From positions 1 to 64,000 of IMG/VR virus record IMGVR_UViG_3300045988_085724: a stretch of DNA of 64,000 nt; one strand, written 5' to 3'. The notes under the pieces were generated by a model, which saw only the letters and a list, made by a program, of their open reading frames with translations, was not told where the DNA came from and ran no database searches. Shown here piece by piece: positions 1 through 64,000 of the stretch. This DNA is from a virus. A program made the position numbers and the translations under genes. Every line of letters begins with the position of its first letter. The stretch's first letter is position 1.

Positions 1-807
1 AAACATAGTGGACAGAAATTAAAGAACTTAGCTCTAAAGTTAACTTTAAATTCTGTTACCGGGAAAATGCAACAAGAAACCAGTTGGATGTACGACCCAT
101 TCAGTGTCTTTAAGATACGTATCAATGGACAATTGATACTATTGATGTTAGTGGATCGACTGCTGGAGTTGAACTGTAAGATTGTGCAGGTCAACACAGA
201 TGGTGTGATGTATATTGCTCAAAAGACACAACGAGAAGCAGTGCAGGAAGCTATTTCAGAAGTTGAGCAATTAACACAACTGACTTTCGAGTCCGATGAC
301 TATGAGGCGTTTTATCAGTACGCCATAAATGACTATTTTGGTGTCGAAAAAGGGTATTCACAATCTCACGACCCTAAACTGATAGAGAAAAAGGGAATGT
401 TTATCACAGATCCTAGATTGGGTAAAGGGTTAGCACCAGCCATTATTCCAAAAGCTGTGATAAACTATTTTTTAACCAAACAACCAACTTTTGAGTACAT
501 CAAATCGTCCAAAGACATTAAAGACTTTATGATGTACCAGCGCGTAGATAAGAAGTTCAAAGTTCTACATGGTGATAAACCTGTACAACGGATAAATCGA
601 TTCTATGCATCAACAAACGATTACTCCTTGTTCAAGGTAGATGACACAGGTAAAGTAGCGAATATGCTTACCAAATCTGGCGTAACTATCTTAAACGAGA
701 TGAATGATATCCCAATTGAAAACAGACATATAAATTACCAGTATTATATTGGTGAGGCAAATAAAATCATATCAGAATTTGTCTGTCAACAATTGGAGCT
801 GTTTTAG
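1..807 (+). CDS. Family-B DNA polymerase, C-terminal part (5' end lies outside the window)
   Basis: The frame is open from base 1. Translation gives KLTLNSVTGKM (motif B, KxxxNSxYG-like) and then VQVNTDGVMY (motif C, DTD-like). The gene ends with TAG at 805-807, followed directly by in-frame TAA at 808-810. Confidence 0.7.
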   Translation, partial: KHSGQKLKNLALKLTLNSVTGKMQQETSWMYDPFSVFKIRINGQLILLMLVDRLLELNCKIVQVNTDGVMYIAQKTQREAVQEAISEVEQLTQLTFESDDYEAFYQYAINDYFGVEKGYSQSHDPKLIEKKGMFITDPRLGKGLAPAIIPKAVINYFLTKQPTFEYIKSSKDIKDFMMYQRVDKKFKVLHGDKPVQRINRFYASTNDYSLFKVDDTGKVANMLTKSGVTILNEMNDIPIENRHINYQYYIGEANKIISEFVCQQLELF

Positions 808-838
808 TAACCAGCTTGTTAACCAAAGAGTATAAGAG

Positions 839-1405
839 ATGATTATTGAAGTAGATACAAAGCTGCTAAATGCAGCACCAAATATCAATCTAAATCAGTT
901 GATATTCCTAAGTATGGTATTGAATAAGAATCAAATTCCAAATCAAGACGTTCGCAAAATTGTCAGCCTTATTAGCGACGATGAAATATCATACTTAATT
1001 TCTCAGGGACTTGTAACCTTGATAGAGAAAGGTAGTTCAAAGATATATCAGGAAACAGACCTCCTTAAACAAAAAATAGCACCCGATAAAGACTATTTCG
1101 ATCTGTTTTATGATATATACCCAGTATACGTATTACGTCCAGATGGTGTTAAAAGCTATCTTCGTGCAAACGTAAATAAATGTCGTCATTTCTTTACTGT
1201 TACAACTGGTAATAGTATAGCAATGAAGGAACATCTAATCAATTGTCTTCAATACGAGATAAATAAAAAAACTCGTGAAGGTAAAATTGGTTATATGAAA
1301 ACGATGTGGAGATGGTTAATAGACCATCAATGGGAAGAAACTGAGGAAGAGATGGCAGATAATAGTACAACAAACACAAATGCTTATGGAACAGAATTAT
1401 TGTAA
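839..1405 (+). CDS. Hypothetical early protein (188 aa); helicase loader or initiator is possible from position only
   Basis: Intact ATG-to-TAA ORF lying between the polymerase and helicase genes. I recognise no motif. Confidence 0.5.
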   Translation: MIIEVDTKLLNAAPNINLNQLIFLSMVLNKNQIPNQDVRKIVSLISDDEISYLISQGLVTLIEKGSSKIYQETDLLKQKIAPDKDYFDLFYDIYPVYVLRPDGVKSYLRANVNKCRHFFTVTTGNSIAMKEHLINCLQYEINKKTREGKIGYMKTMWRWLIDHQWEETEEEMADNSTTNTNAYGTELL

Positions 1406-2318
1406 TGTCGTTAGACCAATGTCAGTTGTAGCACAAGAAGCTATAAACTACATTGCGGCAAGACGAGATCACACCGTTACGTCGCTTAAGACTAGATGGA
1501 AAAAGTTTAATAAGCAATGTATGGGAGGTATAGAACCCAATACTGTTTATACTATTGCTGGCATTTCTGGAAGTGGTAAGTCTAGTTTTGCTAACTTACT
1601 ACAAAGTGATGTGATTGATTTAAATTCTTCAGAAGATGTTATTGTGCTAAACTTCTCACTTGAGATGGTTGGGTTTAGGCAAGTTGGAAGGACTCTTTCT
1701 AATAAATTACGAAAGACTACTTCGACTCTGTATAGTTCGGAAACGGACCTCGACGAAGAAACATTTAGAAAAGTCGTCGCTGTTTCCAACCAGCTAAAGG
1801 AGTATCCTATCTATTTTGTAGATAACCCGTGTACTCCCACGCAAGTTGAGCAAATAATATCTAGTTTCTATAACACCTATGTAAAGGGAACAAAGAAACA
1901 TTTTGTGATATTGTATGATCATGCCCTATTGACGAAACAAGTAGGCTCTGTAATAGAGACTATTAGTGAACTTGAGCGTGTATTTATTCAAGCTAAAAAG
2001 TTACCACTTACGTCGATTATACAATTAGCACAGATGAATCGAAATATAGAAGCGCCTGAAAGAATTAATAACCCGCTTTCGCATTACCCAATGCGTAGCG
2101 ATTTATCATCATCTGATGCAATTTTTCAAGCAAGTGATTATGTGTTAGTAATCCATAGACCGGAAATATTAAATATATCAGAATATGGACCAAATCATCT
2201 ACCTACACAAAACAAGGTATATATGCATATCTTGAAAAATAGAGATGCAGGTAAACCTTGTATCCTTGAATTCGAGAACGATCTAATGTATAACAACTTG
2301 ATTGAAAGTGTATCTTAA
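1380..2318 (+). CDS. DnaB-like (SF4, RecA-fold) replicative helicase
   Basis: Walker A is GISGSGKSS and Walker B-like is FVILYDHALL. A QLAQMNRNIE segment resembles the DnaB C-terminal domain. The true start could be an internal ATG (1386 or 1417). Confidence 0.65.
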   Translation: MLMEQNYCNVVRPMSVVAQEAINYIAARRDHTVTSLKTRWKKFNKQCMGGIEPNTVYTIAGISGSGKSSFANLLQSDVIDLNSSEDVIVLNFSLEMVGFRQVGRTLSNKLRKTTSTLYSSETDLDEETFRKVVAVSNQLKEYPIYFVDNPCTPTQVEQIISSFYNTYVKGTKKHFVILYDHALLTKQVGSVIETISELERVFIQAKKLPLTSIIQLAQMNRNIEAPERINNPLSHYPMRSDLSSSDAIFQASDYVLVIHRPEILNISEYGPNHLPTQNKVYMHILKNRDAGKPCILEFENDLMYNNLIESVS

Positions 2319-2344
2319 GTAAAACAAAATTAAGGCTGAATTTT

Positions 2345-2809
2345 ATGAAAACATATACATTTACTAAGAGTGATTTTAACAACAGTAAGAAAAATTTTAT
2401 CGATGAGATTATCGGCAAAAGTAAGTCTACAAACTATTCTAAGATTATTGACGACATTATATGTGCTGATGTGATCAAGAAGAATCAGTATTTGTTTACT
2501 AAACCTACTGTATGTAACTCTTACGCAGAGGATATCACTTCTGACTTCCTCAAGGCAGCTAACTTCTTGGCAAACTATAAGGAGCCTAAGAATAAGCTGT
2601 ATGACTTTATTATTGGTCGAACATATTATCTGTCTGACAATACGCCCATTATCTTCTACGATGATGAGATTCAGATCGGTTTTGATGTGTTTAAGTATTC
2701 GGACTTTACGTCAACTGATTTTATCAGCGCGATTGCCCCGAAGATGAAGAATACGATTATTGATATTTATACCAATGCTCGTAACTTGACCATTAATATT
2801 AACTTATAA
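2345..2809 (+). CDS. Hypothetical early protein (154 aa)
   Basis: Intact ORF ending in tandem TAA TAA (2807-2812). No motif recognised. Confidence 0.5.
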   Translation: MKTYTFTKSDFNNSKKNFIDEIIGKSKSTNYSKIIDDIICADVIKKNQYLFTKPTVCNSYAEDITSDFLKAANFLANYKEPKNKLYDFIIGRTYYLSDNTPIIFYDDEIQIGFDVFKYSDFTSTDFISAIAPKMKNTIIDIYTNARNLTININL

Positions 2810-2831
2810 TAACAAAATAGAGCTATAAGCC

Positions 2832-3581
2832 ATGCCATTAATATTACCTACTAAGAAAATTCCAGCAAGTACAACTAATCCAAAATTTTTAGTATTGTTC
2901 GGTCGTGAAAAAGTCGGAAAAACTTCTGCTTTAGCACAATTGGACAATAATCTAATCATAGACCTAGAAGGCGGTTCTACATTTGTCGATGCAATGGCAA
3001 TACAATGTAGAAATATAAACGATTTAGGTGAAGCTGCTCAAGCCATTAGAGCTAAGAATAAGGAAGTAGGGCATAATTTCTATAGACACATAACTATAGA
3101 TAATGCAACTTCTCTCGAGGAGATGTGTTTAAGTTATGCTGCTACGTTGTATAGACAACAACCAATGGGTAAAAATTGGACAGGTACAGATGTTAGAACT
3201 CTTCCACAGGGTTCTGGCTATTTGTATTTACGAGAAGCCGTATTAAAGGTTATCGATATGTTCAAAGAACTATGCGATGAATTTATATTAATCGGTCATG
3301 TTAGAGATAATATCGTAACTGATCCAGCTACAGAAGAAGAGCTGTCCGAACGATCGTTAGATTTAGTAGGACGACTATCAGGAATGGTATGTCGAAAATG
3401 TGATGGAGTAGGATATATGTACAGAGACGGAAACGAAGTACATATAAAATTCAAAGCAAATAAAAATATTGCTATGGGTTGCCGTAGCGATCATATTAAA
3501 AACAAAGACATCGTCATTTCAGAAATGGATGATGAAACAGGTGTCTTGACTACTCATTGGGATCGAATATATAAAGATTAA
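2832..3581 (+). CDS. AAA_24 / Sak4-like RecA-fold ATPase
   Basis: The N-terminal P-loop is KFLVLFGREKVGKTS. Size (249 aa) and the position next to the SSB are typical of phage Sak4-like recombination ATPases. The family assignment is from memory. Confidence 0.55.
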   Translation: MPLILPTKKIPASTTNPKFLVLFGREKVGKTSALAQLDNNLIIDLEGGSTFVDAMAIQCRNINDLGEAAQAIRAKNKEVGHNFYRHITIDNATSLEEMCLSYAATLYRQQPMGKNWTGTDVRTLPQGSGYLYLREAVLKVIDMFKELCDEFILIGHVRDNIVTDPATEEELSERSLDLVGRLSGMVCRKCDGVGYMYRDGNEVHIKFKANKNIAMGCRSDHIKNKDIVISEMDDETGVLTTHWDRIYKD

Positions 3582-3607
3582 GAACTATAAGTCAAAATAA
3601 AGAAATT

Positions 3608-4201
3608 ATGTATAATACTAAAACAGCAATTGTAAATAACGAAGAGTTTAATTCAAATTATATGCCTGTAGGCATTAACAACGATGTAACATTAAAATTA
3701 GTAGCAGTTGAAAAGAGTCCACAGGGAAAAGACTTCCTTCGTGTAACATTCGAGAATGGCGCAGGACAAACTGCAGAATTTACAGAGTGGAAAAACGAAA
3801 AGAATATGTGGATTAAAACAGATGAGGATTTGCAAAATCGAGATAACATTCAGTTTGGTCGTATTCTGCAACTTATCAATAGTTTTACTACTGCTCCTGA
3901 TGTAGAATTGAATTCTTTTACAGATATGATTAATTGGGTTAAAGCCACCTTAGACCCATTTATTCCTACCAATAAAAAGCTTAGACTTAAAGTTATTTAC
4001 GACAAGAAAGGATATACACAGGTATCTAAATATGGAACATATGTAGAACCTATGGATGTCAAAGATTCTCAGATTAAATTGTTCAAGAATGATCTTCTTG
4101 AACGTCCTGTAAAGGCTGATGAAGAGAAGCCTGTAGACCCGCTTGCTGCCACTATAAGCAGTACTCCGGTTACTGAGAAAACGGACGACCTACCGTTCTA
4201 A
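3608..4201 (+). CDS. ssb: Single-stranded DNA-binding protein (SSB-like)
   Basis: The C-terminus is an acidic, disordered tail ending ...EKTDDLPF, which matches the canonical SSB protein-interaction tip (DDDIPF type). It sits in the replication module. The gene ends TAA TAG. Confidence 0.55.
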   Translation: MYNTKTAIVNNEEFNSNYMPVGINNDVTLKLVAVEKSPQGKDFLRVTFENGAGQTAEFTEWKNEKNMWIKTDEDLQNRDNIQFGRILQLINSFTTAPDVELNSFTDMINWVKATLDPFIPTNKKLRLKVIYDKKGYTQVSKYGTYVEPMDVKDSQIKLFKNDLLERPVKADEEKPVDPLAATISSTPVTEKTDDLPF

Positions 4202-4231
4202 TAGGTCTGGTGGAGACCGGTTAACTCCGGG

Positions 4232-4274
4232 GTATCGGAATGGTTTTAGAGAGGTTCGATTCCTCTCCCGATAA
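4232..4274 (+). other. tRNA-like acceptor/T-arm minihelix (not a complete tRNA)
   Basis: A canonical T arm is present: AGAGG-TTCGATT-CCTCT (4250-4266). It is flanked by TATCGG (4233-4238) pairing with CCGATA (4268-4273). No D arm or anticodon arm can be built for it. Confidence 0.3.
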
Positions 4275-4477
4275 CATTGTCTAACCCGAAAATGCTTTCA
4301 GCGGAAAGTTATAAATGTCGTCCTTAAGGCGGACGTGAGGTTGAGAAACCCTCTATGTTAGATTTATTAAAAGTTTTCTTTTAGACAATTGAGTCGGCAT
4401 ATAAAACGTGCATTATCCGACAGTACGGCCTGCAAAGGTAGCAACAAGCAGCTATGCTTGGTACAAAAATAGCATCT

Positions 4478-4563
4478 GGCTTGATGGTGAAATTGGTATA
4501 CACACAACACTTAAAATGTTGCGTTCCGAAAGGAACTTGGGGGTTCGAGTCCCCTTTGAGCCA
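4478..4563 (+). tRNA. tRNA-Leu (anticodon UAA), type II with a long variable arm
   Basis: I folded this by hand.
- Acceptor stem: GGCTTGA pairs with TTGAGCC.
- D stem: GTG pairs with CAC.
- Anticodon arm: stem CAACA/TGTTG with loop CTTAAAA, giving anticodon TAA at 4512-4514.
- Variable arm: GTTCC-GAAA-GGAAC.
- T arm: GGGGG-TTCGAGT-CCCCT.
- Discriminator base: A. Confidence 0.85.
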
Positions 4564-4590
4564 CAAATACTAACTAAGAACTTATAAGTC

Positions 4591-5568
4591 ATGTATAGTA
4601 CAAGAACAGCTATCACAATGAGTCTAAAAGATTTATTGGATAAATTGACTGATTATGACATATATTCTTACTATGTTGGACAATTTAAAATAGGAAAATT
4701 ATTCAATAGTCCACTACGATCTGATGATAAAAACCCTTCGTTTGCTATCTTTAAAGGTATGAACGGAGGGTTGTTTTTCAAAGATCATGGTAGCGGAGAA
4801 GGCGGAAATGCTATTAAGTTTGTAAAACTATACAAGAACATCAATACAAAAGATGAACTTGAACGAGAATTGTTGCGCATCGTCCGAAAAATGAATCCTA
4901 ATAGTGGTAATGCTATACGCACGTACTCCTACTCGGTGGATTCAGGGCCGACAGATATCGGAATAGTAAGACAACCGTTTACAGATGTAGATAAACAATA
5001 TTGGAAACAATTTCATATATCATTAGATACATTGAAAAAGTTTCAAGTATTCAGCATTAAATACTTTCTTTGTAATAGAGTCGTCAGAGGAACCTACAAA
5101 GAGAATAGTCCTATGTATGCATATAAAGTGGATGATAAATTTAAAATATATCGTCCGCTTGCTTCCAAGTATACTAAATGGCGTACCAATCTGACAAATC
5201 GGAACGTACAGGGACTATCCGAATTGCCTATGGAAGGAGGTAATCTACTTATAATCACGAAAAGTCTTAAAGACGTGATGTGTTTATATGAGATGGGTTT
5301 TAATGCAATAGCTGCATCTAGCGAAACAACGTTTATTCCAGACGATATTTTAGATTCGTTACGACATAAATGGAAGAATGTTATAATGTTGTATGATAGA
5401 GATAAAACAGGAATGTTAGAATCTCGCAAATATAGTAAACAGTATAAACTGGATGCTTTGTTTGTACATAAACGCTTTAAAGCAAAAGATATATCTGATG
5501 CTGTAAAAGATAATTCATACAACGAAGTCAAACAATGGTTAACACAAACATTGATGAAATATGATTGA
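4591..5568 (+). CDS. DnaG-like TOPRIM primase with a degenerate (cysteine-free) zinc-ribbon region
   Basis: TOPRIM signatures are LLIITKSLKDV...AASSETTF (Glu) and MLYDRDKTG (DxD). The N-terminal SPLRSDDKNPSFAIF...KDHGSGEGG aligns by eye to the DnaG CPFHxEKTPSF...CFGCG motif, but all four Zn ligands are replaced. Confidence 0.7.
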   Translation: MYSTRTAITMSLKDLLDKLTDYDIYSYYVGQFKIGKLFNSPLRSDDKNPSFAIFKGMNGGLFFKDHGSGEGGNAIKFVKLYKNINTKDELERELLRIVRKMNPNSGNAIRTYSYSVDSGPTDIGIVRQPFTDVDKQYWKQFHISLDTLKKFQVFSIKYFLCNRVVRGTYKENSPMYAYKVDDKFKIYRPLASKYTKWRTNLTNRNVQGLSELPMEGGNLLIITKSLKDVMCLYEMGFNAIAASSETTFIPDDILDSLRHKWKNVIMLYDRDKTGMLESRKYSKQYKLDALFVHKRFKAKDISDAVKDNSYNEVKQWLTQTLMKYD

Positions 5569-5794
5569 AACTTTGATTCTATCAGTATTAAGCGGATTAG
5601 CTGGAGGTATTTTAGTAGCAGTAGTATCATTACTACGACAGAAACACTATTTTACTATAAATACTGGTACATATGGATATATATACAGAGATAAAAATGG
5701 CAAATTCTCTGTATCGATTAAATCGAAGAATAATTCTGTATACTTCTTCGGTGATAAAAATGGTGTAAACTCTATAAGTTATGCCAAAAAGTGA
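5561..5794 (+). CDS. Small membrane protein (77 aa)
   Basis: N-terminal hydrophobic helix LILSVLSGLAGGILVAVVSLL. It overlaps the primase stop (ATGATTGA). Confidence 0.4.
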   Translation: MIETLILSVLSGLAGGILVAVVSLLRQKHYFTINTGTYGYIYRDKNGKFSVSIKSKNNSVYFFGDKNGVNSISYAKK

Positions 5795-6173
5795 AGGTAG
5801 AGTTAAAAATGCGACTAAAGTCGATAAGTATGGTCTGCACTTTCGCAGTAAACTCGAATGCTATACTTATGAAGCTTTTATGAAAGCTGGAATACCAGTT
5901 GAGTATGAGCCAAAGCATTTTACTTTACTTAATAAATTTGAGTTCAACAAAGAAAAAATCAGAGCAATTACATATCTACCAGATTTTATTGGAAGTTATA
6001 AAAACAATAAGTTTGTAGTAGAATGTAAAGGAATGATAACAGAGTCATTCCCACTCAGATGGAAACTTTTTAAATATTATTTAAAACGTCATCGAAGTAA
6101 ATACAAATGCTATATGGTGCGTAATCATAAGCAAGTTGACGAGATGATAAACGATATTAAAAATGGAGCATAA
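5781..6173 (+). CDS. DUF1064-like PD-(D/E)XK nuclease (putative junction resolvase)
   Basis: F-S-K-L-E...YLPDF...VVECKG matches the D...E-x-K core and layout I associate with DUF1064. The family name is from memory. Confidence 0.45.
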   Translation: MPKSEGRVKNATKVDKYGLHFRSKLECYTYEAFMKAGIPVEYEPKHFTLLNKFEFNKEKIRAITYLPDFIGSYKNNKFVVECKGMITESFPLRWKLFKYYLKRHRSKYKCYMVRNHKQVDEMINDIKNGA

Positions 6174-6303
6174 AGAAATACGCCGTGAGATAACTCAAGT
6201 ACGATTACAAATAATAAATGCTTTACGTAGTATGAATGCTATAGAAGTAAAAAATTGTATAAAACGACTTAAAGAGTTAGATCGCAAACTTTATGACGAA
6301 TAA
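6163..6303 (+). CDS. Small ORF (46 aa, helical and basic)
   Basis: ATG at 6163 overlaps the upstream TAA. It translates to MEHKEIRREITQVRLQIINALRSMNAIEVKNCIKRLKELDRKLYDE. It is below the size cutoff of the ORF track. Confidence 0.3.
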   Translation: MEHKEIRREITQVRLQIINALRSMNAIEVKNCIKRLKELDRKLYDE

Positions 6304-6421
6304 CTTAGACTAATATGATGGATTTATCAATCCCATACTACGAGGATCTTACCCGTATAAGTTCGCAACCAAATAAGTTTAATATTCGTTATTATGTTGA
6401 ACATTTAATATAGTAACGGAT

Positions 6422-6976
6422 ATGGAAAACGAAATTTGGAAACCCGTTAAAGGGTTTGAAAACATTTATGAAGTTAGTAGTTTAGGTAGAGTTAAATCAT
6501 TGGCTAGACGTATAAAAGCTATATATGGAAGAGCCACCCATTATTCAGAACAAAAAGTAAAAGAGCGAATATTAAAACCAAGCTTTAGTACATATGGTTA
6601 CGCTTATGTAGCACTAGCTAAAAATGGTAAAAGTAAGACAACATTAGTACACAGACTTGTTGCCGAAGCATTTTTAGATAATCCAGATAATCTTCCATGT
6701 GTAAATCATAAAGATGAAAATCCAAGAAACGACGCTGTAGAAAATCTTGAGTGGTGTACTTATACGTATAATAATACATATAAGAATATACATTTAAGAC
6801 GTAAAAAAACAAATAGGCGAATAATTCAATATGATTTAGACATGCATGAGTTAAAAAGATGGGACAGTATTATAGAAGCTGCCAAATTTTACAACATAGA
6901 AACTACAAATATATCTTCTTGTTGTATGGGTAAACGTAACCATTGTGCAGGATTTAAATGGAGATATTATGAATAA
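6422..6976 (+). CDS. HNH homing endonuclease (NUMOD4-like N-terminus plus HNH_3-like core)
   Basis: EIWKPVKGFENIYEVSSLGRVKS is NUMOD4-like. HRLVAEAFL...VNHKDENPRNDAVENLEW is the HNH core. It is free-standing and abuts the start of the exonuclease gene. Confidence 0.8.
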   Translation: MENEIWKPVKGFENIYEVSSLGRVKSLARRIKAIYGRATHYSEQKVKERILKPSFSTYGYAYVALAKNGKSKTTLVHRLVAEAFLDNPDNLPCVNHKDENPRNDAVENLEWCTYTYNNTYKNIHLRRKKTNRRIIQYDLDMHELKRWDSIIEAAKFYNIETTNISSCCMGKRNHCAGFKWRYYE

Positions 6977-7979
6977 TTCTACTAACGATTACTACTCGGA
7001 CAACACGAGATTGTCCAATTCGAACATAGGCTGGTTTCTGAACAAGGGGCCAGCCTATTTACATAAAATGCTATCTGGCAAAGGTGAAGAGGAAAAATCT
7101 TTAGCTTTGACTAAAGGTACAATGATACATGAGTATCTTTTACAGCCTGAAGAATTCCAAAAAGACTATGTAGTCTGGGATAAAAGTAGACCTTCTTCTG
7201 TACAAGAAGAAATGTTCTGTCAGGCATTAGCAGATAGCATTGAAATAGAACCAAATAAAGCCCTTATAAGCGCATATAAAGCAGCTTACAGTACAAGTGG
7301 AAAGAGCGACGATAAAGTCCTCTCAGAAGCCCTTAAAAAGGCCTCTACGCTTAAGGATTATATTGACTTTAAGAAGTCAGGAGATAGGCGAGAGATGATT
7401 ACTAATTATCAGGCTATGCAACTCCAGACAATTAAGTCTAATATATCTAAACATAAAGCAGCTTCAAAACTATTAAAACCAGCAGACAATGAAAAAGTTT
7501 TTCATGAATTTCATATCAATTGGACGTACAGTAGTTCATCAAATGGCAAAGACGGTATTATTACTTGCCGTTGTAAGTCTTTACTTGATAGTGTTACCTT
7601 TAATTTTGATAAGAAACAAGTTATTTTAATGGACTTGAAGACAACATCTCATTTACACAACTTTGCAGATGCTGTCAATACGTATGATTATACAAGACAA
7701 TTGTATTATTATACATTAGCATTATACTGGTACATTAAAAATGAATTACATGAAAATCCAGATAGTTGGAAATTTAGCTGGTATATCATAGCCATAGATA
7801 GTTTTACATCCGATATCCGTGTGTTTGAATTTGATGAAGATCAAATATATTATGAAAAAAACAACATTGATAGAGTAGATTGTGCAATACGAGACATAGT
7901 ATGGCACATGGAAAATAATCTATGGGAACATAGTAGAGCGTACTATGAGGGGACAGGAGTCGAAAAATTGAGCCTATGA
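6969..7979 (+). CDS. PD-(D/E)XK exonuclease (RecE/RecB-like, DUF3799/PDDEXK_1 type)
   Basis: Motifs seen are YYSDNTRLSNS, GTMIHEYLL and VILMDLKTTS (D-x-K). The ATG at 6969 is preferred over the GTG at 6945 used by the ORF track. Its TGA overlaps the next ATG (ATGA). Confidence 0.6.
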   Translation: MNNSTNDYYSDNTRLSNSNIGWFLNKGPAYLHKMLSGKGEEEKSLALTKGTMIHEYLLQPEEFQKDYVVWDKSRPSSVQEEMFCQALADSIEIEPNKALISAYKAAYSTSGKSDDKVLSEALKKASTLKDYIDFKKSGDRREMITNYQAMQLQTIKSNISKHKAASKLLKPADNEKVFHEFHINWTYSSSSNGKDGIITCRCKSLLDSVTFNFDKKQVILMDLKTTSHLHNFADAVNTYDYTRQLYYYTLALYWYIKNELHENPDSWKFSWYIIAIDSFTSDIRVFEFDEDQIYYEKNNIDRVDCAIRDIVWHMENNLWEHSRAYYEGTGVEKLSL

Positions 7980-8440
7980 GTCTTTTTGAAAAAATAATAA
8001 TACCTTTTATCGCACCAGAATTAAAGAAACTTGATTTTACAAATTCGGTAGGGTTTAAAGATTGTTATACATACGATCCTGACAATCCTACTGGAAACAA
8101 TGAGTTTTATATAATGTTTGATAATTCTGTATACAATAAGTATACTATAGATTTGTTCCGAAGACTTGCATCTTCTTATAGTGTAAAGAAGACATATAAT
8201 AAAGTAATCGACAATAAGTCGTATGTAGTGTATTCGTTTTTTGTAAACCCAGAAGTATCTAAATTTTATAATAATCTCGTATCTCTATCGTTTGACCAAA
8301 AGAACCGTTATGTAGACTTTTGGGGTAAATTAGATGAAGACAAAGAAACCGTTACTGAAAATTCAATACTTGCGTTAGATAAAAAACATAGTATGCCATT
8401 GGCGGAGTTCGTTCCGCCACCATGGTATATATACGATTAA
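7976..8440 (+). CDS. Hypothetical protein (154 aa), last gene of the plus-strand block
   Basis: Intact ORF translationally coupled to the exonuclease gene (ATGA). It is followed by a strong terminator. Confidence 0.5.
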   Translation: MSLFEKIIIPFIAPELKKLDFTNSVGFKDCYTYDPDNPTGNNEFYIMFDNSVYNKYTIDLFRRLASSYSVKKTYNKVIDNKSYVVYSFFVNPEVSKFYNNLVSLSFDQKNRYVDFWGKLDEDKETVTENSILALDKKHSMPLAEFVPPPWYIYD

Positions 8441-63113: not shown

Positions 63114-64000
63114 TTATATTAATATTTTAGTTAATTCGTCATTAGAAATAGCTCTAAGCGTAGATTCATCCCAAACAGCTGCACCATCTATTGATAATGT
63201 ACTATGATCTGCACTATATTGGTACGTTAGAGAATCAACAAGTGTACCAACCTCATTAGTTTCAGAATCACATTCTCCAAGGATGCTGTATGTATTTCCT
63301 ATAGCAGTTGATGATAAATTGCTATTAGTCAGCTTGTGCGTATTAATAGCGTCATAGACAGCTTTGCCACTTACTGCATCAGTACCAGTACTTTCTACTT
63401 TATTCACGACTGTATTCCTAGTGGCACCATCTGCTATTCCATTCAACTTAGTCAACAGCGTAGGTGACATCAAACCGTTCGTATTAGTCGTTACAGTAGG
63501 TATTGTAGTAGGACCTACATTTGCGCCCTGATACTCAGTTAATTTCAATTGGAGATCACTAGAGCCATCTGTAGCTGGAACAAATCCTATAGTCTCAATG
63601 CGATGCTTGTTAATCTCACTAGCGATTTTCTTGTCTGCGTCAGTCTTAGTATAATAACCACTTAGATCAAATGAAGCAGTAACCTCGCCAAGTTTCTCCC
63701 ATTTAGTAGCATCATATGTAGCAGTAAGATCACCAGTGTAAATATATTCGGCATAATTATTCTTGTCTCCAGTAGTTCCTACAGCCTTCAAATAAATATG
63801 CTTCTTAATAGTAGCAATAGTACTGGGTAATTCAGTCACAACTTCAAACAATGTAGTATCGAGATTACCAAGTTGACTCAATGGTATAAATCCTTTAGTA
63901 TCAAGTGTAGCAAATCCATTTGGTAAACCAAATGTATTTAATTTGTCAGCAACTGCTCCACTCCAAAGGTTAAGACTCTCAAATTTAGCATCAGAATCAG
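63114..64000 (-). CDS. Tail-fibre-like protein, C-terminal part (5' end lies outside the window), no TAG in the visible part
   Basis: The frame is open to the window edge. It contains GFATLDTKGFIPLSQLGNLDTTLFEVV, the classic fibre motif (LD..GKIP..LP). TAA at 63114. Confidence 0.6.
   Translation of the reverse strand, partial: DSDAKFESLNLWSGAVADKLNTFGLPNGFATLDTKGFIPLSQLGNLDTTLFEVVTELPSTIATIKKHIYLKAVGTTGDKNNYAEYIYTGDLTATYDATKWEKLGEVTASFDLSGYYTKTDADKKIASEINKHRIETIGFVPATDGSSDLQLKLTEYQGANVGPTTIPTVTTNTNGLMSPTLLTKLNGIADGATRNTVVNKVESTGTDAVSGKAVYDAINTHKLTNSNLSSTAIGNTYSILGECDSETNEVGTLVDSLTYQYSADHSTLSIDGAAVWDESTLRAISNDELTKILI

What the first reader, a model, noticed from the sequence alone, without database searches (positions are those of the whole stretch)
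4202..4590. No canonical suppressor tRNA in the window; a 390-nt structured RNA region holds only one clear tRNA
A genome that needs about 225 TAG read-throughs should supply a tRNA with anticodon CUA. This is the largest non-coding stretch in the window and the one that carries the tRNA gene.

I can fold one textbook tRNA in it, Leu(UAA) at 4478-4563. The rest consists of:
- a perfect T arm with a 6-bp acceptor-like stem but no D or anticodon arm (4232-4274);
- hairpins at 4204-4218 and 4217-4230;
- a cloverleaf-like set of three hairpins (4295-4308; 4319-4335 with a 7-nt loop TTAAGGC; 4337-4353) closed by TAACAT/ATGTTA (4272-4277 with 4355-4360);
- further hairpins at 4392-4420 and 4445-4460.

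Three explanations remain open. The suppressor may lie outside the window, it may be non-canonical, or these may be degenerate or processed tRNA-like RNAs.
Basis: seen in the sequence. Interest (0 to 1): 0.65.

Follow-up and report, generated by a model that had tools for sequence, protein, structure and literature searches.

The report
Conserved structured spacer; suppressor tRNA lies elsewhere
The 390-base gap is the spacer between the single-strand-binding and primase genes of a crAss-like gut phage: it holds one real tRNA and a conserved, undescribed folded RNA leader, while the missing stop-codon suppressor tRNA almost certainly sits about 5.6 kb beyond the window's end, as in its closest relatives.

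Summary
The window has one tRNA, Leu(UAA) at 4478-4564, and every hairpin listed is present. 4202-4590 is the largest non-coding gap, and the minus-strand late genes carry 225 in-frame TAGs.

The missing suppressor is ordinary. The closest relative, crAssphage cr131_1 (Suoliviridae, Oafivirinae; 94-96% identical), carries a tRNA(CUA) about 5.6 kb past the position matching the window's end. The next relative carries it too.

4202-4477 is neither a hidden tRNA nor decaying junk. It starts with a once-per-genome module: a hairpin over the upstream stop codon, a near-invariant TGGTGGAG, then a second hairpin. This module sits upstream of primase in 69 of 84 fetched loci. Both stems covary and G-U pairs favour the + strand. 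An acceptor/T-arm minihelix follows, with the ACA trailer of real tRNAs, then three covarying hairpins.

Nothing matches Rfam, and four searches of the held papers found no description. Folding energy alone is no better than chance, so the support is comparative.

My best inference is a cis-acting processing or stability leader that feeds tRNA and tRNA-like units to RNase P. Function is untested. Single-strand DNA priming, promoter and tRNA-mimic readings remain open.

The parts
3608..4201 (+). Upstream gene (197 aa), a putative single-strand DNA-binding protein. Context only.
   Evidence: The ORF is listed. It ends ...TDDLPF*, an SSB-type acidic tip that is conserved as (D/E/N)(D/E/N)LPF* in nearly all relatives. 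It lies next to a Sak4-like annealing protein. It has no Pfam or PHROG hit of its own, so the SSB call is inferred.
4187..4207 (+). hp0: hairpin GACCTA / CCGTTCTAA / TAGGTC with the upstream gene's stop codon in its loop. Its 3' arm abuts the 8-mer.
   Evidence: Equivalent stems in relatives covary: GATCTAC/GTAGATC, GATCTGC/GCAGATC, ACGCCC/GGGCGT, ACACCC/GGGTGT, ATACCC/GGGTAT, ACGTCAG/CTGACGT. Synonymous changes in the coding arm are compensated in the non-coding arm.
4208..4215 (+). Near-invariant single-stranded 8-mer TGGTGGAG (UGGUGGAG in RNA).
   Evidence: It is on the + strand upstream of primase in 69 of 84 fetched loci. Rare variants are TGGTGGAA and TGGTGGAT. Chance expectation in the whole window is 0.85.
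4217..4230 (+). hp1: CCGG TTAACT CCGG, the hairpin that always follows the 8-mer.
   Evidence: L006 has CCAG/CTGG, a compensatory change. Other clades have TCCAG/CTGGA, TTCGG/CCGAA and GTTGAC/GTCAAC. In the main-class covariance-model alignment, 98.2% of cells are paired, 7 of 8 pairs show two-sided changes, and 0 of 500 shuffles match.
4233..4276 (+). tRNA-like minihelix: acceptor-like stem TATCGG/CCGATA, a 9-nt 5' bulge AATGGTTTT, and a T arm GAGAGG TTCGATT CCTCTC (4249-4267). An ACA trailer follows at 4274-4276.
   Evidence: The homologous long hairpin has 0 mismatches in four clades, with compensatory changes such as GAATGGTA/TACCATTC versus GAGTGGTA/TACCACTC. The 20-nt T arm is identical in L022 and L029. 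The same ACA trailer follows the real tRNAs of these phages. The canonical T-loop sequence is found only in the window clade.
4279..4293 (+). Conserved unpaired stretch GTCTAACCCGAAAAT.
   Evidence: It is conserved in the window clade and L007-L012. It contains TCTAA but has no flanking anticodon stem.
4294..4309 (+). hpA: GCTTTC AGCG GAAAGT.
   Evidence: In L007-9 it reads TAACAA AGCG TTGTTA. Every stem pair differs from the window's and all remain paired, while the loop AGCG is invariant.
4310..4317 (+). Conserved linker TATAAATG.
4319..4335 (+). hpB: CGTCC TTAAGGC GGACG. The loop has a conserved A-R-G-G core and a variable length of 6-13 nt.
   Evidence: Because the loop length varies, it is not an anticodon loop.
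4337..4353 (+). hpC: GAGG TTGAGAAAC CCTC.
   Evidence: Relatives have ACGG/CCGT, TAGG/CCTA and CAGG/CCTG.
4361..4477 (+). Lineage-specific spacer and leader of tRNA-Leu, with hairpins at 4393-4421 and 4445-4460.
   Evidence: It is found only in the window, cr131_1 and L006. There is one compensatory change: CAAGCA/TGCTTG versus CAAGTA/TACTTG.
4478..4564 (+). tRNA-Leu(UAA), class II with a long variable arm.
   Evidence: ARAGORN. Rfam tRNA scores 51.6 bits against a gathering score of 29.
4565..4590 (+). Conserved primase leader ending in the palindrome GA-ACTTATAAGT-C (4578-4590), directly before the ATG.
   Evidence: It is 100% identical in several diverged loci. The outer palindrome positions covary between loci.
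4591..5568 (+). DNA primase (zinc ribbon plus Toprim). Context only.

Best explanation
**What it is.**
- The window comes from a crAss-like phage of Suoliviridae/Oafivirinae, closest to Cacepaovirus cr131_1. Its late genes read TAG as sense.
- 4202-4590 is the spacer between the putative SSB gene and the primase gene in the standard-code early/replication operon.
- It contains no suppressor tRNA. The amber suppressor tRNA(CUA) lies elsewhere in the genome, about 5.6 kb beyond window position 64000, on the late-gene strand and upstream of the late block.

**What the spacer encodes.** It is a + strand structured RNA with three parts.
1. A once-per-genome module: hairpin hp0, the near-invariant single-stranded UGGUGGAG, then hairpin hp1.
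2. An acceptor/T-arm minihelix with the same ACA 3' trailer as genuine tRNAs, followed by three covarying hairpins.
3. tRNA-Leu(UAA), about 25 nt ahead of a conserved palindromic primase leader.

**How it most likely works (inferred).**
- The spacer is co-transcribed with the operon.
- RNase P and the 3' tRNA-processing enzymes excise the tRNA and the tRNA-like minihelix.
- This cuts the polycistronic RNA into an SSB message ending in a protective structured 3' end (hp0-8mer-hp1) and a separate primase message.
- The invariant 8-mer is the docking site for a trans factor, either a nuclease or a binding protein, that sets processing or stability.

**Shown versus inferred.**
- Shown: gene content, conservation, covariation, strand preference, and the absence of any tRNA(CUA).
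- Inferred: transcription of the spacer, RNase P cleavage, and the stabilising or processing role.
For: **Suppressor lies elsewhere.**
- Only tRNA-Leu is found in the window.
- cr131_1 is 94.6-96% identical and has tRNA(CUA) at 9258-9330.
- The window's end maps to cr131_1 at about 14.9 kb.
- The same suppressor is in the L006 contig and three other contigs.
- Published work places suppressor tRNAs in many recoded crAss-like phages (PMC7886860). A preprint describes a 'code change module' upstream of the lysis cassette, with the alternatively coded structural and lysis genes after it (10.64898/2026.08.21.746148).

**Conserved structured RNA.**
- TGGTGGAG is on the + strand upstream of primase in 69 of 84 loci.
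- An exact 19-mer of the module occurs once per contig in 40 IMG/VR contigs.
- hp1 covaries and hp0 covaries.
- The minihelix, hpA, hpB and hpC show 0 mismatches in every lineage with many two-sided changes.
- All wobble pairs are G-U on the + strand. There are 7 in the hand table and 12 G-U/U-G cells against 4 non-standard cells in the model alignment.
- The + strand folds better in 34 of 51 cases.

**Processing model.**
- The minihelix and the many tRNA-like units in relatives keep a perfect T arm, a 7-bp acceptor stem and an ACA trailer. Their anticodon region is deleted, expanded or capped by a GNRA loop.
- A T-arm unit lies between the upstream gene and the primase ATG in three other Suoliviridae subfamily genomes that lack the 8-mer, ending within about 60 nt of the ATG.
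- The module stays near the upstream gene's stop codon (5-146 nt) while its distance to primase ranges from 53 to 1876 nt.
- Remnants of the SSB 3' coding arm travel with duplicated modules and preserve hp0.
- Established knowledge supplies precedents: the tRNA-mRNA co-transcript of the E. coli tufB operon, and the T4 tRNA cluster with its stable RNAs.
Against: - There are no expression or end-mapping data, so transcription and cleavage are assumed.
- Folding energy of the window sequence alone is not better than shuffles.
- The canonical T-loop is present only in the window clade. Homologous hairpins in other clades have loops TTGGTT or ATCGCAA, so RNase P recognition may not be general.
- Minimal loci L027 and L080 keep the module without any tRNA-like unit. 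The module's role therefore cannot be tRNA processing as such.
- G-T wobbles are also tolerated in single-stranded DNA hairpins, so RNA versus + strand ssDNA is not settled.
- The rest of this exact genome could not be retrieved. The suppressor's presence rests on relatives.
Confidence: 0.55

Rival explanations
1. It is a DNA-level element. The hp0-TGGTGGAG-hp1 module, extruded as + strand single-stranded DNA between the SSB and primase genes, is a priming or replication-initiation signal. It would resemble G4-type single-strand initiation sites or plasmid single-strand origins, where SSB-free hairpins and a short conserved motif recruit the primase.
For: - It occurs once per genome.
- It sits between SSB and primase in a replication gene block.
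- It has an orientation-specific conserved motif flanked by covarying hairpins.
- G-T wobbles are also the best-tolerated mismatch in DNA hairpins.
Against: - Cumulative GC skew turns at the gene-orientation switches (window 8594; cr131_1 6580 and 71355), not at this spacer.
- The spacer is contiguous with bona fide + strand tRNA genes and T-arm units that make sense only as RNA.
- There are no iterons and no AT-rich unwinding element next to the module.
Confidence: 0.12
2. It is a dedicated promoter plus a 5'-terminal stabilising hairpin. An A/T-rich hexamer and GGTCAG lie just upstream, transcription starts in or near TGGTGGAG, and hp1 is the 5' stem-loop of a tRNA/primase transcript.
For: - A WATAAW-like hexamer lies 4-7 nt upstream of the 8-mer in most loci, and about 20 nt are nearly invariant in the main class.
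- tRNA cassettes are inserted downstream of the module and upstream of primase.
- In phi14:2-like phages the middle/late promoter motif lay upstream of a tRNA gene at least once in 12 of 14 genomes (10.1101/2020.03.07.982082).
Against: - There is no conserved -35 or -33 element at fixed spacing.
- hp0, which covaries and ends exactly at the 8-mer, would lie upstream of the start site and be unexplained.
- The motif occurs only once per genome, so it is not a general promoter class.
- It does not match the Bacteroidota -7 TAnnTTTG consensus (own knowledge).
Confidence: 0.12
3. It is a trans-acting tRNA-mimic system. The minihelix, and the non-decoding tRNA-like units in relatives, accumulate as small stable RNAs. 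They would act as decoys or sponges for tRNA-binding host factors such as anticodon nucleases, CCA-adding enzyme or modification enzymes. UGGUGGAG is complementary to CUCCACCA, the 3' end of tRNA-Ala and tmRNA, and its first six bases to any ...CC-A-CCA end. It would bind tRNA 3' ends in a T-box-like way.
For: - Many tRNA-like units keep the elbow and acceptor but not a decodable anticodon loop.
- The 8-mer is invariant, as expected for pairing with an invariant partner.
- It lies single-stranded between two helices.
- Highly abundant intergenic ncRNAs of unknown function exist in another crAss-like phage (10.1101/2020.03.07.982082).
Against: - Five of the eight complementary nucleotides lie in the base-paired or stacked part of a tRNA acceptor end.
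- There is no T-box hit, specifier loop or terminator.
- Minimal loci have the module but no tRNA mimic.
- Nothing here shows that these RNAs accumulate.
Confidence: 0.13
4. It is a neutral graveyard of decaying tRNA pseudogenes and terminator hairpins with no function of its own.
For: - This spacer gains and loses tRNA genes rapidly between relatives: Gln, Leu, Lys and others.
- The window's T arm is identical to that of tRNA-like units elsewhere, which suggests recombination between T arms.
- Folding energy is unremarkable.
Against: - Compensatory changes keep every stem fully paired across clades whose primases are only 67-85% identical.
- An 8-mer is conserved where flanking sequence is not alignable.
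- The module is retained even in a 90-nt minimal spacer.
Confidence: 0.05
5. A non-canonical amber suppressor (armless, permuted, split or intron-containing tRNA) is hidden in 4202-4477.
For: - The genome needs TAG decoding.
- At a lowered threshold ARAGORN proposes a 72-nt 'tRNA-?' at 4204-4275.
- Published work allows for divergent suppressors that are hard to detect (PMC7886860).
Against: - That low-threshold call has a 2-nt 'anticodon' gg and a mismatched acceptor stem. It is one of 21 junk calls in the window.
- Intron mode finds nothing and there is no covariance-model hit at E<=10.
- No hairpin loop carries U-CUA-purine.
- Loops of the conserved hairpins vary in length and sequence between relatives.
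- The closest relatives have the same spacer and also a normal tRNA(CUA) elsewhere.
Confidence: 0.02

Closest known systems
Suppressor tRNA(CUA) 'code-change' arrangement of TAG-recoded phages (crAss-like Suoliviridae; genetic code 15)
   Same: - Late genes are full of in-frame TAG and early genes are in the standard code.
- Relatives encode a tRNA(CUA) upstream of the late block.
   Different: - The suppressor is not in this window or in this spacer.
- The spacer's tRNA is an ordinary Leu(UAA).
tRNA-mRNA co-transcripts punctuated by RNase P (E. coli tufB operon; phage T4 tRNA cluster with stable RNAs 'species 1 and 2'; mitochondrial tRNA punctuation) - from established knowledge
   Same: - tRNA and tRNA-like units are embedded between protein genes of one operon.
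- The units keep exactly the parts RNase P and the 3' processing enzymes recognise: acceptor stem, T arm and trailer.
   Different: - Processing has not been shown here.
- Many units are non-decoding.
- An extra invariant 8-mer module has no counterpart in those systems.
tRNA-like minihelices and viral tRNA-like structures (mascRNA of MALAT1, gammaherpesvirus 68 vtRNAs, plant-virus 3' TLS)
   Same: - An acceptor stem stacked on a T arm, without a decoding anticodon arm.
- Location at a transcript boundary.
   Different: - Rfam mascRNA and tmRNA models match only the T hairpin, far below threshold.
- No CCA is encoded.
- A 9-nt 5' bulge replaces the D and anticodon domain.
- The T-loop consensus is not kept in other clades.
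T-box leader antiterminator (UGGN bulge pairing with tRNA NCCA-3')
   Same: - A conserved unpaired UGGU... sits between helices.
- It is complementary to a tRNA 3' end.
   Different: - There is no specifier loop, no terminator/antiterminator alternative and no Rfam hit.
- T-boxes are not a Bacteroidota feature (own knowledge).
- Here the two helices are separate hairpins.
Abundant intergenic ncRNAs of crAss-like phage phi14:2 (10.1101/2020.03.07.982082)
   Same: - A crAss-like phage with early-expressed non-coding intergenic regions of unknown function.
   Different: - It is a different phage family and a different locus.
- No sequence or structure comparison was possible.

Membership tests
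Canonical tRNA, including suppressor tRNA(CUA), for 4202-4477 | Cloverleaf scoring at or above the tRNA covariance-model threshold, or an ARAGORN call. | tested here: not met
   Rfam tRNA and ARAGORN hit only 4478-4564. A relaxed ARAGORN call at 4204-4275 has a 2-nt anticodon and a mismatched acceptor stem, among 21 spurious calls.
Canonical tRNA, including suppressor tRNA(CUA), for 4202-4477 | A 7-nt anticodon loop with U33, CUA at 34-36 and a purine at 37. | tested here: not met
   The loops are GGTGG, TTAACT, TTCGATT, AGCG, TTAAGGC, TTGAGAAAC and GCTA. None fits, and loop lengths vary between relatives.
Intron-containing or permuted tRNA | tRNA halves joined by an anticodon-loop intron, or halves in permuted order. 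| tested here: not met
   ARAGORN -i0,300 finds nothing new in the window. In relatives the same option does call many units with 3-83 nt inserts.
tmRNA | A tRNA-like domain plus a tag reading frame. | tested here: not met
   ARAGORN makes no tmRNA call in the window. The Rfam beta_tmRNA match covers only the 17-nt T hairpin, at 11.7 bits against a threshold of 84.
tRNA-like minihelix (acceptor/T-arm mimic) for 4233-4276 | An acceptor-type stem stacked on a 5-6 bp stem with a 7-nt T-loop (T54 T55 C56 R57 A58). | tested here: met
   TATCGG/CCGATA plus GAGAGG TTCGATT CCTCTC. The T-loop consensus holds only in the window clade.
tRNA-like minihelix (acceptor/T-arm mimic) for 4233-4276 | Recognition by RNase P, CCA-adding enzyme or a synthetase. 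| not testable with these tools
   This needs in vitro cleavage or CCA-addition assays, or end mapping.
tRNA-like minihelix (acceptor/T-arm mimic) for 4233-4276 | The same 3' trailer context as genuine tRNAs of the same genome. | tested here: met
   ACA follows the minihelix, tRNA-Leu, tRNA-Gln and most tRNA-like units.
T-box riboswitch | Specifier loop, T-box sequence, and competing terminator and antiterminator. | tested here: not met
   There is no Rfam hit at E<=10. The only + strand terminator-like site in the consensus scan of 3900-4900 is a weak 5-bp stem at 4226-4239, overlapping hp1, and it is not a T-box-type terminator/antiterminator pair.
Any described RNA family (Rfam 15) | A score at or above the family's gathering threshold. 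| tested here: not met
   The window, 20 related loci and cr272_1 (best hit skipping-rope at 16.6 bits against 36.7) give only tRNA hits.
Conserved structured RNA (generic criterion) | Helices kept by compensatory substitutions across diverged sequences. | tested here: met
   hp1: 7 of 8 pairs with two-sided changes and 0 of 500 shuffles matching. RNAalifold finds 10 of 32 pairs with two-sided changes in 5 sequences. A hand-checked table shows 0 mismatches in 8 helices. hp0 covaries as well. The model-fitted alignment leans towards its own structure.

The most novel reading that the evidence does not exclude
The hp0-UGGUGGAG-hp1 module and the attached array of non-decoding tRNA look-alikes form a previously undescribed phage RNA system. 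The 8-mer would capture an invariant partner, either the ...CCACCA/CUCCACCA 3' end of tRNAs or tmRNA, or a dedicated protein. The tRNA mimics would act as decoys or processing handles. Together they would let the phage manipulate the host's tRNA-processing or tRNA-targeting defence machinery while it switches genetic code.
Probability: 0.13. Interest if true: 0.75.

Novelty: new variant of a known kind. Interest (0 to 1): 0.42.

Why it matters
**For the question asked.**
- It removes a false mystery. This recoded phage does not lack a suppressor; the window simply ends about 5.6 kb short of it.

**Beyond that.**
- The spacer shows a conserved, once-per-genome RNA module that is absent from Rfam and was not found in the papers searched.
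- It appears across one subfamily of one of the most abundant groups of gut phages.
- It sits at a hot spot where tRNA and tRNA-like cassettes are gained and lost.
- If the processing model is right, it shows how these phages uncouple expression of an abundant SSB from a scarce primase, and how they mature their tRNAs.
- If the trans-acting reading is right, it would be a new kind of phage tRNA mimicry.
- Either reading can be tested with ordinary RNA end-mapping.

Tried and rejected
**Searches that found nothing useful.**
- Retrieving the rest of this genome: a code-11 fragment of the terminase is not on record. The exact primase lies on a 50-kb contig that ends near the window start.
- BLAST of the main-class module against GenBank phages found no match.
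- Four literature searches found no description of the motif.

**Readings tested and dropped.**
- Minus-strand reading. Its complement looks like a tRNA-Ala/tmRNA acceptor end, GGGG...CUCCACCA with G3-U70. I rejected it for three reasons: the wobble pairs favour the + strand, the GGGG partner exists only in one class, and the T arms and tRNAs are on the + strand.
- The 8-mer plus hp1 as the D and anticodon arms of a tRNA whose acceptor 5' strand lies upstream. No complementary 3' strand was found.
- Replication origin by GC skew: not supported.
- The second TGGTGGAG beside a T arm in cr131_1 at 8694: the number of copies in that genome is what chance predicts, so I did not count it.
- Long-range pairing of the 8-mer with GTCTAACC, proposed by RNAalifold: only 3 of the pairs are general, so I did not adopt it.

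**Technical limit.**
- MAFFT alignments across clades misplace stems of unequal length. Column-based pair counts were therefore replaced by a model-based alignment and a hand-checked table.
Full report
**Identity of the window**

- Window 3500-5500 is 94.6% identical to crAssphage cr131_1 (NC_055902; Crassvirales, Suoliviridae, Oafivirinae, Cacepaovirus). Weaker matches are to cr130_1, Bohxovirus, cr272_1 and cr273_1.
- The window runs antiparallel to the cr131_1 record and covers roughly 14.9-79.3 kb of its 96.7 kb.
- With TAG read as sense, the minus-strand ORFs from 8552 onward fuse into very long reading frames carrying 225 in-frame TAGs. The + strand replication genes at 1-8440 have almost none.
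- This is the early-standard, late-recoded layout described for crAss-like phages (PMC7886860).

**Checking the observation**

- ARAGORN finds one tRNA, Leu(UAA) at 4478-4564.
- Rfam finds the same single hit at gathering score, at E<=10 on 4100-4700 and at E<=1 on the whole window.
- ARAGORN with introns allowed gives nothing more.
  - Only at an 80% threshold does it propose a 'tRNA-?' at 4204-4275, with a 2-nt anticodon and a mismatched acceptor stem.
  - That call is one of 21 obviously spurious calls.
- 4202-4590 is the largest gap between ORFs.
- Two corrections are needed.
  - The hairpins at 4204-4218 and 4217-4230 overlap and compete.
  - The TAACAT/ATGTTA 'closing stem' is already broken in cr131_1.
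- Folding energy of the window sequence alone is not better than shuffled controls. The sequence by itself does not prove structure.

**Where the suppressor is**

- cr131_1 carries tRNA-Val, tRNA(CUA), tRNA-Leu, tRNA-Gln(UUG) and tRNA-Met.
- Its tRNA(CUA) is at 9258-9330. Window position 63932 aligns to cr131_1 position 14974.
- The homologous site therefore lies about 5.6 kb past the window's end, on the late-gene strand and upstream of the late block.
- A 20-nt anticodon-arm probe finds the same suppressor in five IMG/VR contigs, one of which is cr131_1 itself. One of the others also holds the window's second-closest relative, L006.
- I could not retrieve the remainder of this exact genome, so this step is an inference from relatives.

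**What the spacer is**

- The upstream gene (3608-4201) ends in ...DDLPF*, the acidic tip typical of SSB proteins. It follows a Sak4-like annealing protein.
- The downstream gene is a zinc-ribbon/Toprim primase.
- I fetched 80 primase relatives from IMG/VR. In them the spacer is a fast-changing tRNA locus with Gln(UUG), Leu(UAA), Lys and others.

**The hp0-TGGTGGAG-hp1 module**

- One thing is nearly constant. The 8-mer TGGTGGAG (window 4208-4215) is on the + strand upstream of primase in 69 of the 84 loci held at that point. Those 84 were the 80 primase relatives plus four cr131_1 and cr130_1 regions.
  - Rare variants are TGGTGGAA and TGGTGGAT.
  - Chance would give under one copy in 64 kb.
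- A 19-nt version occurs once per contig in 40 viral contigs.
- The 8-mer is always followed by a hairpin of variable sequence (hp1).
  - A covariance model built on four seeds recovers 33 instances at E<0.01.
  - In its alignment 98.2% of cells pair, 7 of 8 pairs show two-sided changes, and no shuffle or slid control comes close.
- The 8-mer is also preceded by a hairpin (hp0) whose 3' arm ends exactly at the 8-mer.
  - Its stems covary: ACGCCC/GGGCGT, ACACCC/GGGTGT, ATACCC/GGGTAT, ACGTCAG/CTGACGT, GATCTAC/GTAGATC, GATCTGC/GCAGATC. The window has GACCTA/TAGGTC.
- In the window clade and in L071-74, the 5' arm of hp0 is the SSB C-terminal coding sequence. Synonymous codon changes there are compensated in the non-coding arm.
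- Where extra modules occur, a remnant of that coding arm (GGTGCTGACnACC) has been copied along with them.
- The module stays 5-146 nt from the upstream stop in most loci, while its distance to primase ranges from 53 to 1876 nt.
- In L027 and L080 the whole spacer is just the module, with no tRNA at all.
- The 8-mer is limited to Oafivirinae-like genomes with primase at least about 61% identical.
  - Dulem virus 42 has it.
  - cr10_1, cr50_1, cr60_1 and cr118_1, from other subfamilies, do not. Three of those four still have a T-arm unit upstream of primase.

**The rest of 4202-4477**

- 4233-4273 is an acceptor-like stem (TATCGG/CCGATA) plus a textbook T arm, followed by ACA.
- The real tRNAs of these phages and dozens of tRNA-like units in relatives share that ACA trailer.
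- The homologous element is a fully paired hairpin in four clades.
  - In L007-L012 it is one continuous stem of 11-12 bp.
  - In L071-74 it keeps a 13-nt bulge on its 5' side, like the 9-nt bulge in the window.
  - Compensatory changes occur between clades. The canonical T-loop is present only in the window clade.
- Hairpins 4294-4309, 4319-4335 and 4337-4353 are conserved with compensatory changes in L006-L012.
  - For the first, every stem pair differs between the window and L007-9, while the loop AGCG is invariant.
- Every wobble seen is G-U on the + strand and none is A-C. The + strand also folds better in 34 of 51 cases.
- 4361-4477 is specific to the window, cr131_1 and L006, and shows one compensatory change.
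- None of this matches any Rfam family in the window, in 20 relatives or in cr272_1. Four literature searches found no description.

**Mechanism**

- The following is shown: a single-copy, strand-specific, covarying RNA-type structure that heads an array of tRNA and tRNA-like units between two replication genes.
- From here on it is inference.
- The tRNA-like units keep precisely what RNase P and the 3' trimming and CCA enzymes recognise. They discard what decoding needs.
- A T-arm unit upstream of primase is found across the family.
- This fits tRNA punctuation of a polycistronic transcript, as in the E. coli tufB operon or the T4 tRNA cluster (established knowledge).
- The module travels with the upstream gene and carries its own copy of the partner arm. 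That fits a structured 3' end or processing site for the SSB message, with the 8-mer as the docking site of a trans factor.
- I give this composite reading 0.55. About 0.85 applies to 'suppressor elsewhere, no hidden tRNA', and about 0.35 to the specific processing or stability role.

**Rivals**

- A + strand ssDNA priming signal between SSB and primase is not excluded, because G-T is tolerated in DNA. GC skew gives it no support, and the attached tRNA features argue for RNA.
- A promoter plus a 5' hairpin fits the A/T-rich hexamer upstream. It leaves hp0 unexplained and lacks any -35-type element.
- A trans-acting tRNA-mimic or tRNA-end-binding system is the most novel reading still open. UGGUGGAG is the exact complement of CUCCACCA, the 3' end of tRNA-Ala and tmRNA (own knowledge).
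- Neutral decay is contradicted by the covariation.
- A hidden suppressor is contradicted, and by relatives that have both this spacer and a normal tRNA(CUA).

**Verdict**

- The headline puzzle is ordinary and explained.
- The 'structured region' is real, conserved and undescribed, but its function is unproven.
- I rate it moderately interesting, as a new variant of known kinds: phage tRNA-cluster leaders and tRNA-like elements.

Noticed in passing
window 4578-4590 (GAACTTATAAGTC, directly before the primase ATG at 4591); L005-L084 positions about 2985-3000: A palindrome xyCTTATAAGy'x' abuts the primase start codon. Its outer positions covary between loci: GACTTATAAGTC, AACTTATAAGTT, GGCTTATAAGCC, AAGCTTAAGCTT, AATCTTAAGATT. 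It could be a translational operator hairpin or a dimer-binding operator for primase.
   Followed up: partly
L007-L084, about 1000-3000 (the spacer upstream of primase); e.g. L007 1923-2096, L038 2828-2932, L019 2144-2235, L014 2639-2704: Relatives carry many tRNA-like units with a perfect T arm, a 7-bp acceptor stem and an ACA trailer. The anticodon loop holds a 3-83 nt insert or is replaced by a GNRA-capped stub. They are either short-intron tRNAs or non-decoding mimics. I found no description of this in the papers searched.
   Followed up: partly
window 3608-4201: This 197-aa protein has no Pfam or PHROG hit. It has an SSB-type C-terminal tip ...DDLPF* that is conserved across all relatives, and it lies next to a Sak4-like annealing protein (2832-3581). 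It is probably a divergent SSB.
   Followed up: partly
L014, L015, L019, L068 (e.g. L019 2245-2268): Remnants of the SSB gene's 3' coding sequence (GGTGCTGACnACC) are duplicated in front of additional or displaced TGGTGGAG modules. This suggests cassette insertion or duplication at this spot that preserves the hp0 pairing.
   Followed up: partly
cr131_1 record 90571-90934 (L004 43572-43935, minus strand); outside the window's span: ARAGORN and the GenBank record call a permuted tmRNA with tag peptide GNYNVVDYTHVA*. I did not check whether it is real.
   Followed up: no
cr131_1 record 8530-8750 (L003): Downstream of tRNA-Val lie two further tRNA-like units. One has a 17-nt anticodon loop. The other is a 71-nt unit (8678-8748) in which TGGTGGAG sits where a D arm would be. 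The 8-mer there may be a chance occurrence.
   Followed up: partly
window 8552-15058 and 15046-33162 (minus strand): These are giant late ORFs of about 2169 and 6039 codons with 28 and 62 in-frame TAGs. On an identical contig they were called as single genes of 2163 and 6034 residues. The recorded Pfam hits are ART-PolyVal for the first and NADAR, DUF7831 and DUF1848 for the second.
   Followed up: no
window 6174-6421 and 6422-6976: The second-largest non-coding gap (248 nt) precedes a NUMOD4/I-HmuI-like homing endonuclease gene that cr131_1 lacks at this position.
   Followed up: no
L252 (cr272_1) 1818-1883: There is a sub-threshold Rfam match to the skipping-rope RNA motif (16.6 bits against 36.7, E = 0.23). 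It covers the GAGGGG TGAAATG CCCCTC hairpin that follows the module in the L037/Buhlduvirus class. It is probably chance.
   Followed up: no
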